Source: a virus (lineage: Duplodnaviria; Heunggongvirae; Uroviricota; Caudoviricetes). From it: DNA of 5,293 nucleotides. Positions 307 to 5,293 of the stretch are shown here, in pieces. The stretch is from the IMG/VR virus record IMGVR_UViG_2695420658_000009, one strand, 5' to 3'. Each line of letters opens with the position of its first letter. Position 1 is the stretch's first letter. The notes below the pieces were generated by a model that saw nothing but the letters and a program-made list of their open reading frames with translations, had not been told where the DNA came from and made no database searches. Position numbers and translations under genes: made by a program.

Positions 307-862
307 NNNNNNNNNNNNNNNNNNNNNNNNNNNNNNNNNNNNNNNNNNNNNNNNNNNNNNNNNNNNNNNNNNNNNNNNNNNNNNNNNNNNNNNNNNNNNN
401 NNNNNNNNNNNNNNNNNNNNNNNNNNNNNNNNNNNNNNNNNNNNNNNNNNNNNNNNNNNNNNNNNNNNNNNNNNNNNNNNNNNNNNNNNNNNNNNNNNNN
501 NNNNNNNNNNNNNNNNNNNNNNNNNNNNNNNNNNNNNNNNNNNNNNNNNNNNNNNNNNNNNNNNNNNNNNNNNNNNNNNNNNNNNNNNNNNNNNNNNNNN
601 NNNNNNNNNNNNNNNNNNNNNNNNNNNNNNNNNNNNNNNNNNNNNNNNNNNNNNNNNNNNNNNNNNNNNNNNNNNNNNNNNNNNNNNNNNNNNNNNNNNN
701 NNNNNNNNNNNNNNNNNNNNNNNNNNNNNNNNNNNNNNNNNNNNNNNNNNNNNNNNNNNNNNNNNNNNNNNNNNNNNNNNNNNNNNNNNNNNNNNNNNNN
801 NNNNNNNNNNNNNNNNNNNNNNNNNNNNNNNNNNNNNNNNNNNNNNNNNNNNNNNNNNNNNN
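307..862. other. masked/unresolved bases (556 N)
   Basis: Run of n in the input. By context it hides the fibre stop codon and most of the plus-strand tfa gene. Confidence 1.
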
Positions 863-2440: not shown

Positions 2441-2494
2441 TGGCGGTTTCTGGCCTGCATGGCATGATTTGTGCTTTTGGACGGGAGATTCAGC

Positions 2495-2821
2495 GTGCTG
2501 ATTGGCTATGTAAGGGTATCAACAAATGACCAGAATACAGACCTGCAACGAAACGCTCTTGTTTGTGCAGGATATGAACAAATATTTGAAGATAAATTAA
2601 GCGGAACAAGGACAGGCCGACCTGGATTAAAACGTGCTTTAAAGCGCCTTCAAAAAGGTGACGCACTGGTTGTCTGAAAACTGGACTGACTGGGGCACTG
2701 TATGCGGCATCTTGTCGTGCTGGTGGTGGAAGCCTAGAAAAAGTATCGGGTGTTGCTGAACCGTGTTGATACATCAACTGCACCTGATATTGAGTGGCCT
2801 ACGAACCCTGTCAGGGAGTAA
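2495..2821 (+). pseudogene. pin: pin/gin-family serine DNA invertase, N-terminal 60 codons intact, then nonsense codons and an in-frame fusion to the 3' end of a tfa gene
   Basis: GTG at 2495 follows a GGGAGA Shine-Dalgarno (2483-2488). Translation VLIGYVRVSTNDQNTDLQRNALVCAGYEQIFEDKLSGTRTGRPGLKRALKRLQKGDALVV* matches the Pin/Gin N-terminus including the catalytic-serine motif YVRVSTNDQ. In-frame continuation is [45 protein letters not shown]. Stops are at 2675, 2687, 2735 and 2819. The last about 30 codons are a Tfa C-terminus (…[24 protein letters not shown]…), not invertase. Confidence 0.7.
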
Positions 2822-2993
2822 TCATTGGGATTATGCCGCAGCACGTCTTAAGCANCTTAGATGGTAAATGTCTCGCCTGTGCTATATTTTGTTTTTCGGT
2901 TAGTTAAATATCGTACGTTCATATTTGAACGTTCTGCCGGAATGCATTATCAATAGAGGTAAAGTCGCAACCCCAAATCGTAAAGGAAACCGT

Positions 2994-3029: not shown

Positions 3030-3848
3030 CTATTTTTTCCCTGAAGCGGAAAACATTACTACAGTACCTTGAACCCTGGTTTTAACATTCTCGAAATGCT
3101 CTGAGAGTATATGTGTTAAGCCTTCTTCGGAATCTTTTGTGTTTGAAAAGATGCCTTTCTGATTGTAAATGCGCATCAGTTTTTGACCGAAGCTATTGTG
3201 CACAACTCCATCGCCAAGAATTGTGGCTCCGTATAGAGTTCCATCGTCAGTTAAGGCCTGCGCCGCATTGCGTATTACACAGCTTTTTGTAGATATATTT
3301 CCAGGCAGGCAGTGAAGAAGGTAAAACATGGAAATGGAATCAAATTGACCATGTAACGCCGCGGGATAAGGTTCAAAAACATCATGGCTAATTTTATGTT
3401 TAATTTTTGATTCCCCAGCCCTTGTAGATGCCGCGTTCAGGCTAGCTTCGTTCAAATCCATTAAAGATATCAGACTACTCTCAGGTACGTGAGTAAGGTA
3501 AAACCCAGTTCCAACACCAATATCCAGATGGTTGTTACCTAAATGTTCCAGAAAGTGTGGAAGAAGGTGTTCCTTTGTAGGACATCCCCATGCAAGCCGA
3601 TTTGATACTCCCAAAACCCACCAGTCATAAAGCTTTAGGGTAAGTGGTGTGTAAATTTTAGCCCCATCATCTGTGTTTNNNNNNNNNNNNNNNNNNNNNN
3701 NNNNNNNNNNNNNNNNNNNNNNNNNNNNNNNNNNNNNNNNNNNNNNNNNNNNNNNNNNNNNNNNNNNNNNNNNNNNNNNNNNNNNNNNNNNNNNNNNNNN
3801 GTATGCTTCGATACAGCAGGAGCCGAATGGCTGGAAGACCGTCACCAC
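3030..3848 (-). CDS. class I SAM-dependent methyltransferase (small-molecule/O-MTase-like; no DNA-MTase motifs seen); N-terminal part partly masked
   Basis: ORF of 272 codons with stop TAG at 3030-3032. It has the SAM-binding motif I HLDIGVGTGFYL followed by an acidic strand end (LISLMDLNE) and a later FDSISMFYLLHCLP segment, the canonical Rossmann-fold MTase order. No (D/N/S)PP(Y/F/W) or PCQ motif is present. The start is uncertain: GTG at 3846-3848 with no clear SD, and bases 3679-3800 are N. Confidence 0.65.
   Translation of the reverse strand: MVTVFQPFGSCCIEAYXXXXXXXXXXXXXXXXXXXXXXXXXXXXXXXXXXXXXXXXXNTDDGAKIYTPLTLKLYDWWVLGVSNRLAWGCPTKEHLLPHFLEHLGNNHLDIGVGTGFYLTHVPESSLISLMDLNEASLNAASTRAGESKIKHKISHDVFEPYPAALHGQFDSISMFYLLHCLPGNISTKSCVIRNAAQALTDDGTLYGATILGDGVVHNSFGQKLMRIYNQKGIFSNTKDSEEGLTHILSEHFENVKTRVQGTVVMFSASGKK
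3679..3800. other. masked/unresolved bases (122 N) inside the methyltransferase 5' region
   Basis: Run of n in the input. Confidence 1.
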
Positions 3849-3879
3849 ACAGTTCTACATCCAGGAATTTAGTGAGTAT

Positions 3880-4230
3880 ANNNNNNNNNNNNNNNNNNNN
3901 NNNNNNNNNNNNNNNNNNNNNNNNNNNNNNNNNNNNNNNNNNNNNNNNNNNNNNNNNNNNNNNNNNNNNNNNNNNNNNNNNNNNNNNNNNNNNNNNNNNN
4001 NNNNNNNNNNNNNNNNNNNNNNNNNNNNNNNNNNNNNNNNNNNNNNNNNNNNNNNNNNNNNNNNNNNNNNNNNNNNNNNNNNNNNNNNNNNNNNNNNNNN
4101 NNNNNNNNNNNNNNNNNNNNNNNNNNNNNNNNNNNNNNNNNNNNNNNNNNNNNNNNNNNNNNNNNNNNNNNNNNNNNNNNNNNNNNNNNNNNNNNNNNNN
4201 NNNNNNNNNNNNNNNNNNNNNNNNNNNNNN
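3880..4230. other. masked/unresolved bases (351 N) between the methyltransferase and the Rha-proximal ORF
   Basis: Run of n in the input. All three listed ORFs crossing it are open only because N cannot encode a stop. Confidence 1.
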
Positions 4231-4410
4231 CATGGTTCAATGGTCCGTCTGCCCCCTGTGGTGATGTCAGCAAAATCAGCCACTGCGCGAACCACAATAG
4301 CCCGGGAAGATGCTGAAGATCACCAGGTAAAGCTGTCAGCGCAGAAACTGGAAGAACTGCTCGCATCAATGGTTAAGGATGAGGTTGATCGCAATGATGG
4401 GATTTATTGA
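4231..4410 (+). CDS. hypothetical protein, C-terminal part (start hidden in N-run), ending at TGA 4408-4410; possibly an interrupted longer gene
   Basis: Plus frame 1 is open across all visible sequence with E. coli-like codon choice: ...MSAKSATARTTIAREDAEDHQVKLSAQKLEELLASMVKDEVDRNDGIY*. The same frame stays open for 29 more codons after the TGA, to TAA at 4498-4500. Minus-strand frames in 4296-4536 are broken by stops. Confidence 0.4.
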   Translation, partial: HGSMVRLPPVVMSAKSATARTTIAREDAEDHQVKLSAQKLEELLASMVKDEVDRNDGIY

Positions 4411-4536
4411 CGTCAGCGAGAGCAGAAGGAAGAACTGAATAACCTGAATGATTTACGCTCAATCAGAGCGATGGCGATTAGCGGCAATCACGCTCGATAA
4501 AATTAACCTCGGTGATCATCCGGGGTTTTGCATTCA

Positions 4537-5094
4537 TTAAAACCGCATCAACCTTTCCACCAATTGTTCTTTACGGGCAACGATCCACCCATGTTGCTCC
4601 AGATAAAATTTAAACCGTTCCAGAGTGCATACCATCGCATCGGCGGGGACTTTTTCTGTGAACTCGACCTGACCGTGTTTATCGAAGTGGATCAGTAATG
4701 CGCATCCATTATTTGGGGCGGGGGAGTTTTGTGCTGCAGGAGGACGTTTGTGGAGTTCTTCTTCCATTGCGTTAAATTTTTCAATGTAAGCTTCTTTTAG
4801 TCTGGCTGCTTTTTTGCCAGTAAATCCCATTACGAGGAACATGAAGCCGTCTTTTGTGATCAGGTAGCATCGTGATTCACGTTCTGCGCCGTTGCCAATT
4901 TCGACAGTCTGAACATCGGCCGAAAAGTTGGCTGATGTAAATTCGGGAGAGCAGTCGAGTGTGTCAATCTTAGCTAAAACGTGTTTATGTTGTTTATCGA
5001 AGTAGTCGGCAACAGCTTGAGAGGTGGTAACCAGGCGACCATCTTTGAAAAAGACTTTTGGTGACTCGTTAGAAAAAGTTATAGCTGTATTCAT
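4537..5094 (-). CDS. rha: Rha-family phage regulatory protein (antirepressor-like, Phage_pRha domain)
   Basis: ATG at 5094-5092 is preceded by GGAG with a 9-nt spacer. Translation MNTAITFSNESPKVFFKDGRLVTTSQAVADYFDKQHKHVLAKIDTL...YLITKDGFMFLVMGFTGKKAARLKEAYIEKFNAMEEEL... carries the Rha signature (LxMGFTGKKAxxxKxxYIxxFNxME). Stop TAA at 4537-4539. The TTG at 5109 in the ORF track is unlikely to be the start. Confidence 0.8.
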   Translation of the reverse strand: MNTAITFSNESPKVFFKDGRLVTTSQAVADYFDKQHKHVLAKIDTLDCSPEFTSANFSADVQTVEIGNGAERESRCYLITKDGFMFLVMGFTGKKAARLKEAYIEKFNAMEEELHKRPPAAQNSPAPNNGCALLIHFDKHGQVEFTEKVPADAMVCTLERFKFYLEQHGWIVARKEQLVERLMRF

Positions 5095-5121: not shown

Positions 5122-5155
5122 TCACCACCTCTGACGCCAATCAGGGAGGTGGTGA
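5122..5155. promoter_or_regulatory. inverted repeat with 10-bp perfect arms in the rha leader/upstream region
   Basis: tcaccacctc (5122-5131) and gaggtggtga (5146-5155) are exact reverse complements separated by 14 nt; an inner tga/tca pair extends the stem. Confidence 0.3.
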
Positions 5156-5254
5156 GACGTACAGGGTTGGCGTAACCGGTCATCACAAAACCCGGCGCGG
5201 ATTTCTCCGCCCCTGCACGCCCCACCATAATGCGAATGTGGCAATGCTTAACGC

Positions 5255-5274
5255 AAAAAAAACCGCAAACGCGG
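5255..5274 (-). terminator. possible intrinsic terminator reading leftward (minus strand) upstream of rha
   Basis: On the minus strand: CCGC-GTTT-GCGG hairpin (plus coordinates 5263-5274) followed immediately by TTTTTTTT (plus 5255-5262). The stem is only 4 bp, so weak. Confidence 0.3.
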
Positions 5275-5293
5275 CTATGCGTTGTGATGTTAT

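What the first reader, a model, noticed from the sequence alone, without database searches (positions are those of the whole stretch)
4231..4500. Plus-strand ORF continues in frame through a TGA stop
Frame 1 encodes ...EDAEDHQVKLSAQKLEELLASMVKDEVDRNDGIY, then TGA (4408-4410), then 29 further sense codons RQREQKEELNNLNDLRSIRAMAISGNHAR before TAA (4498-4500). Both segments have coding-like codon usage, while the minus strand is closed by stops. Explanations are a recent nonsense mutation (consistent with the decay seen in pin and the fibre cassette), stop-codon read-through, or two tiny adjacent ORFs. The gene converges on rha with only 36 bp between stops.
Basis: seen in the sequence. Interest (0 to 1): 0.4.

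Follow-up and report, generated by a model that had tools for sequence, protein, structure and literature searches.

The report
Dead tail-fibre chaperone gene remnant
The reading frame that continues through a TGA stop is the leftover back half of a phage tail-fibre chaperone gene that has lost its front half and picked up a stop codon; it is an ordinary pseudogene that public E. coli annotation already flags.

Summary
Frame 1 of 4231-4500 reads ...DRNDGIY, TGA (4408-4410), 29 sense codons, TAA (4498-4500).

Openness alone is not significant, since 29 open codons have a chance probability of about 0.21. Homology settles it. Intact ~193-aa DUF4376 (PF14301) proteins sit at the same chromosomal spot in other E. 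coli strains: the right end of a prophage inserted in ompW, 36 bp from convergent rha. They align without gaps across the TGA (70% identity, E = 2e-40). They read Arg or Gln where the window has TGA, and they end in the same ...AISGNHAR-TAA.

Only residues 102-193 of that gene survive here. The N-terminal 101 codons, the start codon and the upstream fibre gene are gone.

NCBI's PGAP pipeline annotates the identical stretch in an ST131 genome as a pseudogene ("internal stop; incomplete; missing N-terminus"). The TGA was present in 78 of 78 loci recovered with the same flanks, including E. albertii, so it is old and not a sequencing error.

There is no SECIS-like fold, no Cys at the site in homologues, and no start codon for a second ORF.

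Verdict: a decayed prophage pseudogene, already known, of low interest.

The parts
4231..4407 (+). DUF4376 tail-fibre-chaperone pseudogene, the part before the internal stop. It corresponds to residues ~105-163 of the intact 193-aa protein. Homology actually begins about 9 nt earlier, at ~4222 inside the masked run, as read from the unmasked ST131 copy L001 4992.
   Evidence: tblastn of the intact P393-F10 protein against the unmasked ST131 copy gives one gapless HSP: residues 102-193, 70% identity, E = 2e-40, with nothing of residues 1-101. PGAP pseudogene at L001 4992-5270. The window is 100% identical to L001 over 4231-4500.
4408..4410 (+). In-frame TGA nonsense codon.
   Evidence: Intact homologues have CGT (Arg), CGC (Arg), CAG (Gln) or CAA (Gln) at this codon. 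TGA is present in 78 of 78 loci with the same flanks.
4411..4497 (+). The remaining 29 codons of the pseudogene, its native C-terminus RQREQKEELNNLNDLRSIRAMAISGNHAR.
   Evidence: 27 of 29 residues are identical to the C-terminus of the intact P393-F10 protein. The last ~70 nt are identical in DNA.
4498..4500 (+). Native TAA stop of the DUF4376 gene.
   Evidence: The intact genes in L005 and L006 end at the same TAA, 36 bp before rha.
4505..4527 (.). Hairpin AACCTCGG-TGATCAT-CCGGGGTT flanked by an A-run and a T-run. It is a likely bidirectional intrinsic terminator between the convergent genes. The window carries a C>T change that turns one G-C pair into a G-U pair.
   Evidence: Fold -11.6 kcal/mol, z = -2.23. 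The terminator scan finds it in L001 at 5297-5275. The single mismatch to ST131 lies in this stem.
4537..5094 (-). Convergent Rha-family regulator gene, apparently intact.
   Evidence: ORF. PGAP product WP_001348267.1 at the equivalent L001 5307-5864.
3801..3880 (+). Visible start of a separate tail-fibre-assembly (Tfa) pseudogene fragment that precedes the DUF4376 remnant. The rest is masked in the window.
   Evidence: PGAP 'tail fiber assembly protein; incomplete; missing N-terminus' at L001 4719-4895, which equals window 3949-4125. Sequence read.

Best explanation
This is a non-functional remnant (pseudogene) of a phage tail-fibre chaperone gene of the DUF4376 family. It lies at the right end of a decayed lambdoid prophage integrated in ompW. 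In intact prophages the ~193-aa gene follows the tail-fibre gene directly and ends 36 bp before the convergent rha gene. Here a rearrangement removed the fibre gene and the first 101 codons, including the start codon and part of the DUF4376 domain. A base substitution also turned an Arg or Gln codon into TGA; CGA to TGA is the most economical route, and that step is inferred. Because the fragment has no proper start and only part of a domain, the stop has no consequence. The downstream 29 codons still look like coding sequence simply because they have not had time to drift. The order of the two lesions is inferred, not shown. A copy with the same 5' breakpoint but no stop exists elsewhere, which suggests that truncation came first or that gene conversion later replaced the 3' half.
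For: (1) PGAP annotates the identical sequence as a DUF4376 pseudogene, 'internal stop; incomplete; missing N-terminus' (likewise UTI89 and 95JB1). (2) Intact 193- and 195-aa genes occupy the same position relative to rha, ash and the ompW remnant in L005 and L006. (3) One gapless alignment runs across the TGA, covering residues 102-193 at E = 2e-40, and nothing upstream matches residues 1-101. (4) Homologues have Arg or Gln at the site: SerU-LTIIb, Rac-SA53, P393-F10, O139, UC4315 and P0011. (5) The intact protein passes Pfam DUF4376 (58 bits against a cut-off of 25) and matches phrog_1141 'tail fiber protein' at 1e-89. The fragment no longer reaches Pfam DUF4376 even at E = 0.1. (6) The TGA is in 78 of 78 loci from three collections, and 77 share the same 5' junction, so it is not a sequencing error. 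(7) Further decay variants exist: a recombinant without the stop (P0005/L085) and a 78-nt deletion variant (P0024). (8) The neighbourhood is full of other fragments: a truncated pin-type recombinase, two Tfa fragments and a truncated fibre gene.
Against: The fragment is 98-100% conserved in roughly a thousand E. coli genomes, which could be read as constraint. However, the non-coding spacer upstream is equally conserved, and the diversity is too low to test selection. A GGAGG lies 10 nt before the in-frame ATG at 4240, so a 56-aa peptide cannot be formally excluded. Several gene callers do output it as a hypothetical protein (P0020, P0007). No expression data were available.
Confidence: 0.93

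Rival explanations
1. Programmed recoding: the TGA is read through or decoded as selenocysteine, so that one protein is made across it.
For: The frame stays open for 29 codons after the TGA. From my own knowledge, not tested here, TGA followed by C is a weak termination context in E. coli.
Against: The RNA downstream of the TGA folds no better than shuffles (z = -0.49), and Rfam finds nothing there. Homologues carry Arg or Gln at the site, not Cys. The ORF lacks its first 101 codons and its native start, so any product would be a partial domain. The 'Trp' proteins in metagenome databases come from DNA that has TGA, so they are a genetic-code artefact of gene calling.
Confidence: 0.01
2. The truncated fragment is a small functional gene in its own right, about 56-62 aa from ATG 4240 or an upstream GTG to the TGA. 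It could, for example, be a decoy that interferes with fibre assembly of incoming phages.
For: A Shine-Dalgarno-like GGAGG lies 10 nt upstream of ATG 4240 in the unmasked copy. The fragment is present in many lineages, at two chromosomal sites (the ompW prophage and the Rac right end), and in E. albertii. PGAP annotates the 97-aa stop-free variant as a CDS (P0005).
Against: No promoter-like site lies near it. The only + strand match is about 280 nt upstream, at the level expected by chance, and a terminator-like hairpin lies between that site and the fragment. The fragment has lost about 30 positions of the DUF4376 profile and no longer scores. Its variants include stop, no-stop and deletion forms, which is the pattern of neutral decay. 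The flanking non-coding DNA is equally conserved.
Confidence: 0.04
3. Sequencing or assembly error at 4408-4410, or a gene on the minus strand that explains the region better.
For: None beyond a priori possibility.
Against: The identical TGA is in hundreds of independent complete genomes and in 78 of 78 recovered loci. The minus frames carry 3-7 stops in the stretch. The longest antisense ORF (116 aa in L004) has no PHROG match and is not annotated.
Confidence: 0.01

Closest known systems
Intact DUF4376 (PF14301) protein of ompW-integrated lambdoid prophages, e.g. WP_373693747.1 (E. coli P393-F10) and WP_000701870.1 (O139:H1 P15-25)
   Same: It occupies the same chromosomal position, with the same 36-bp spacer and terminator before rha. 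It has the same C-terminal 29 residues (27 of 29) and the same TAA. It is 70% identical over residues 102-193.
   Different: The window copy lacks residues 1-101 and the start codon, has TGA in place of Arg or Gln, and is not preceded by a tail-fibre gene.
Rac-SA53 'tail4' and SerU-LTIIb 'stf2' (phage GenBank records KU052037, KU052038)
   Same: Both are full-length homologues (187 and 192 aa) lying immediately downstream of the side tail-fibre gene. They are 60-67% identical to the window fragment and span the TGA position with Arg or Gln.
   Different: Their extreme C-termini differ (…ISSN, …NFIVK), they sit at different attachment sites, and they are intact.
Tail-fibre chaperones carrying DUF4376 (phage Mu U/Tfa-type, Alteromonas phage V22 gp27, Campylobacter CJIE1 gene downstream of the H-fibre)
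   Same: They share the conserved C-terminal DUF4376 domain and the gene position after the fibre gene. The literature describes the domain as mediating fibre assembly and multimerisation (PMC7882524, PMC10579305).
   Different: The relation to them is shown only at the level of Pfam domain membership of the intact E. coli homologue. No function can be claimed for the remnant.

Membership tests
DUF4376 (PF14301) tail-fibre chaperone family | Match to the Pfam profile above the gathering score | tested here: not met
   The window fragment (89 aa, X at the stop) gives no DUF4376 hit at E <= 0.1. The intact homologue SerU-LTIIb stf2 scores 58 bits against a cut-off of 25, over residues 73-177. 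The fragment starts at residue ~102 and so lacks about 30 profile positions.
DUF4376 (PF14301) tail-fibre chaperone family | Significant sequence homology to bona fide members | tested here: met
   tblastn E = 2e-40 at 70% identity to the intact P393-F10 protein. E = 3e-22 and 2e-23 to phage homologues. The intact protein matches phrog_1141 at 1e-89.
DUF4376 (PF14301) tail-fibre chaperone family | Gene located immediately downstream of a tail-fibre gene | tested here: not met
   This holds in the intact loci L002, L003 and L005. In the window type, the upstream neighbours are a Tfa fragment and a methyltransferase.
Pseudogene (decayed prophage gene) | Full-length intact orthologue exists at the same locus in other strains | tested here: met
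   L005 2183-2764 and L006 2177-2764, next to rha, ash and the ompW remnant.
Pseudogene (decayed prophage gene) | Disabling lesions: truncation and/or a premature stop relative to orthologues | tested here: met
   Residues 1-101 are missing. TGA stands at the codon that is Arg or Gln in homologues.
Pseudogene (decayed prophage gene) | No expression or function | not testable with these tools
   No transcript or proteome data were available. The promoter scan gives only chance-level matches.
Selenocysteine / programmed UGA recoding | SECIS-type hairpin just downstream of the UGA | tested here: not met
   MFE -10.5 kcal/mol, z = -0.49 against shuffles. No Rfam match in 4231-4536.
Selenocysteine / programmed UGA recoding | Homologues with Cys or Sec at the aligned position, and a complete ORF upstream | tested here: not met
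   Homologues have Arg or Gln. The upstream ORF is truncated.

The most novel reading that the evidence does not exclude
The 5'-truncated DUF4376 fragment, which is widespread, sits at two prophage sites and has a chance Shine-Dalgarno sequence before ATG 4240, may be expressed as a small protein. This would be 56 aa to the TGA, or ~86 aa with leaky UGA-C read-through. It might retain the oligomerisation part of the chaperone domain and interfere with tail-fibre assembly of related superinfecting or co-resident phages.
Probability: 0.03. Interest if true: 0.35.

Novelty: already known. Interest (0 to 1): 0.05.

Why it matters
It matters little. The result removes a candidate recoding site and shows that the open frame after the TGA is residual coding signal in a dead gene. 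Two practical points follow. Gene callers treat this remnant inconsistently: as a hypothetical protein, as a 'putative tail component', as a 97-aa CDS, or as a Trp-containing product under the wrong genetic code. Masked N runs can also create false long ORFs.

Tried and rejected
- **SECIS or read-through structure.** I folded 4405-4470 and it was no better than shuffles. Rfam at a permissive E-value found nothing in the pseudogene.
- **Apparent sense-codon variants.** Proteins P0001-P0003 show Trp at the site. I fetched the DNA (L084) and it has TGA, so this is a translation-table artefact.
- **A closely related allele with a sense codon.** I scanned genome, viral and metagenome collections with NNN at the codon. 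All 78 hits had TGA, so the immediate ancestor was not recovered.
- **My first idea about the 3' end.** I thought ...NHAR-TAA was a secondary recombination junction, because phage 204576 and UTI89 diverge after 4488. I rejected this as a lesion once intact rha-linked genes were found to end in exactly the same sequence. It is allelic mosaicism, with two 3' contexts.
- **Selection test.** The polymorphism analysis had too few real variants: 4232 A>C, 4335 G>A (synonymous), and the 3' mosaic block.
- **Antisense ORF.** The 116-aa ORF in L004 has no PHROG match.
- **Solved structures.** There is no relative of the intact protein in the PDB by sequence.

Full report
**Observation.** Frame 1 of 4231-4500 translates as HGSMVRLPPVVMSAKSATARTTIAREDAEDHQVKLSAQKLEELLASMVKDEVDRNDGIY*RQREQKEELNNLNDLRSIRAMAISGNHAR*. 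The TGA is at 4408-4410 and the TAA at 4498-4500. Within this stretch frame +1 has only these two stops. The other frames have 3 to 8 each, and the three minus frames have 3, 4 and 7. The stop of the convergent rha ORF is at 4537-4539, so the intergenic gap is 36 bp. Openness alone is weak evidence: with the local composition, 29 stop-free codons have a probability of about 0.21. The finding starts at 4231 only because 3881-4230 is masked with N. The 245-aa 'ORF' 3673-4410 listed is an artefact of that masking.

**What it is.** The stretch is 100% identical to many complete E. coli genomes. In ST131 strain 4/1-1 (locus L001), NCBI's PGAP pipeline annotates exactly this stretch (L001 4992-5270, equal to window 4222-4500) as a pseudogene: 'DUF4376 domain-containing protein; internal stop; incomplete; missing N-terminus'. 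The same annotation appears in UTI89 and 95JB1.

The region is the right end of a prophage inserted in ompW, next to the trp operon. It is a graveyard of tail-fibre cassette debris. It holds a truncated fibre gene, a truncated pin-type recombinase, two fragments of tail-fibre assembly genes and an apparently intact SAM-dependent methyltransferase. These are followed by the DUF4376 fragment, rha and an 'ash family' CDS.

**Intact counterparts.** In E. coli P393-F10 (L005) and O139:H1 P15-25 (L006), intact 193- and 195-aa DUF4376 genes lie at the same place. They sit directly after a tail-fibre gene (L005) and 36 bp before the same rha-ash-ompW' arrangement. The intact proteins align with the window's conceptual translation right across the TGA. 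A tblastn of the P393-F10 protein against the unmasked ST131 copy gives one gapless HSP covering residues 102-193, at 70% identity and E = 2e-40. No trace of residues 1-101 is found.

At the TGA position the intact genes read CGT (Arg), CAG (Gln) or CAA (Gln). Phage homologues SerU-LTIIb stf2 and Rac-SA53 tail4 read CAG and CGC. The C-terminus after the stop, RQREQKEELNNLNDLRSIRAMAISGNHAR-TAA, matches the intact P393-F10 protein at 27 of 29 residues. The last ~70 nt are identical, including the stop, the spacer and the terminator hairpin.

**Family.** An intact homologue passes Pfam DUF4376 (PF14301, 58 bits against a cut-off of 25, residues 73-177). The intact P393-F10 protein matches phrog_1141 'tail fiber protein' at 1e-89. 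The window fragment no longer reaches the Pfam profile even at E = 0.1, because about 30 profile positions are missing. Published work describes DUF4376 as the conserved C-terminal domain of tail-fibre chaperones encoded downstream of the fibre gene: Mu U/Tfa type, Alteromonas V22 gp27 and Campylobacter CJIE1 (PMC7882524, PMC10579305). No solved structure is related by sequence.

**Population picture.**
- A match to 4231-4500 is present in 1,222 of 5,426 complete E. coli genomes. By record, 394 are at least 99% identical and 563 are 95-99% identical.
- Pattern scans with NNN at the codon, over one genome per species, IMG/VR and JGI/ENA metagenomes, returned 74 loci. Together with the loci already fetched, 78 of 78 carry TGA, and 77 share the same 5' junction sequence. 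One of them is Escherichia albertii.
- The lesion is therefore old and widespread. It is not recent and not a read error.
- There are two 3' contexts. One is followed by rha-ash (the window type). The other is followed directly by the ompW remnant, with a slightly different C-terminus …MMIGSN-TAG (UTI89 type).

**Protein database search.** This search added three informative variants.
- Proteins P0001-P0003 show Trp at the site. Their DNA (L084) has TGA, so this is a gene-calling artefact of an alternative genetic code.
- P0005, P0006 and P0008 have the same 5'-truncated start, but their 3' half is replaced from 'LEEL' onward by a Rac-type allele with CAA (Gln). They lie at the Rac right end near uspF and ompN.
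- P0024 is a 78-nt deletion between the direct repeats GAAGAACTG, which removes the TGA.

This assortment of stop, no-stop and deletion forms on a common truncated backbone is the signature of neutral decay and recombination among prophage ends.

**Rivals.**
- **Recoding (selenocysteine or programmed read-through).** This is not supported. The RNA after the UGA folds no better than shuffles (z = -0.49), and Rfam finds nothing there. Homologues have Arg or Gln rather than Cys, and the ORF has no proper beginning.
- **Two tiny adjacent ORFs.** This is not supported. No ORF of 25 aa or more starts after the TGA in that frame, and the only in-frame ATG would give a 9-residue peptide.
- **A minus-strand gene.** This is not supported. 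The minus frames carry stops, the longest antisense ORF has no family match, and none is annotated.
- **A small functional protein.** This is the only reading I cannot exclude: a product from ATG 4240, which has a GGAGG 10 nt upstream in the unmasked copy. However, no convincing promoter lies nearby, and a terminator-like hairpin lies upstream. The non-coding spacer is as conserved as the ORF, and the variation is too low to test selection.

**Mechanism.** Shown: the fragment derives from a full-length DUF4376 gene, has lost codons 1-101 and carries an in-frame TGA at an Arg/Gln codon. Inferred: the substitution was CGA to TGA, one transition from an Arg codon, since Arg occurs in several homologues. 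Also inferred: truncation preceded or was independent of the stop, because a stop-free copy shares the same breakpoint. It follows that the fragment has no function.

**Verdict.** This is an ordinary prophage pseudogene that public annotation already flags. Interest is 0.05 and novelty is 'already known'.

Noticed in passing
window 5145-5232 (-) and 5256-5293 (-); L001 5915-6002 (-) and 6026-6100 (-): Rfam finds a complete C4 antisense RNA (RF01695, 75.9 bits, gathering score 45). Just upstream it finds an isrK Hfq-binding sRNA (RF01394). This is cut off by the window end but complete in the ST131 copy, at 72.2 bits against a gathering score of 50. Both lie upstream of rha on its strand and inside the CDS that PGAP calls 'ash family protein'. 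From my own knowledge, the layout resembles the P1 immI (c4-icd-ant) and Salmonella Gifsy-1 isrK-anrP antirepressor modules. The 'ash' CDS call may therefore be questionable.
   Followed up: partly
L084 181-432; proteins P0001-P0003: Metagenome protein catalogues contain 83-aa products of this pseudogene with Trp at the TGA. The underlying DNA has TGA, so the gene caller used a TGA=Trp code on short contigs. This is a database artefact that could mislead a homology-based read-through test.
   Followed up: yes
L085 2496-2789 and L086 1773-2066 (Rac right end, next to uspF-ompN): The same 5'-truncated DUF4376 fragment, with the same upstream spacer, occurs at a second prophage site. Its 3' half is exchanged for a Rac-type allele, and it has CAA instead of TGA. 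PGAP annotates it as a 97-aa CDS.
   Followed up: partly
window 4351-4359 and 4428-4436: The direct repeat GAAGAACTG flanks the TGA. A natural 78-nt deletion variant (P0024, 60 aa, 4 contigs) joins the two copies and removes the stop.
   Followed up: partly
window 4509 (within hairpin 4505-4527): This is the only difference from ST131 genomes in 4231-4560. A C>T change in the terminator stem (CCCCGG to CCTCGG) turns a G-C pair into a G-U pair. Three IMG/VR loci (L015, L025, L028) share it.
   Followed up: partly
window 3030-3698 (-): An apparently intact class I SAM-dependent methyltransferase (WP_000240999.1 in ST131 and UTI89) is embedded among tail-fibre gene fragments. It looks like a moron-type cargo gene that survived while the surrounding phage genes decayed.
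   Followed up: no
window 2471-2677 (+), 2763-2830 (+), 3801-3880 (+): Other debris from the fibre cassette is present: an N-terminal 68-aa piece of a pin-type invertase ending in a stop, and two C-terminal pieces of tail-fibre assembly genes. Each assembly-gene piece ends in ...DIEWP(T/A)NPVRE and is followed by the same hairpin, CCGCAGCACGT...ACGTGCTGCGG. PGAP marks them all as incomplete.
   Followed up: partly
window 307-862, 1000-1476, 3680-3800, 3881-4230: Long masked N runs create false ORFs in mechanical ORF lists (for example 7-915, 3030-3848 and 3673-4410). The content of 3881-4230 can be read from L001 4651-5000.
   Followed up: yes
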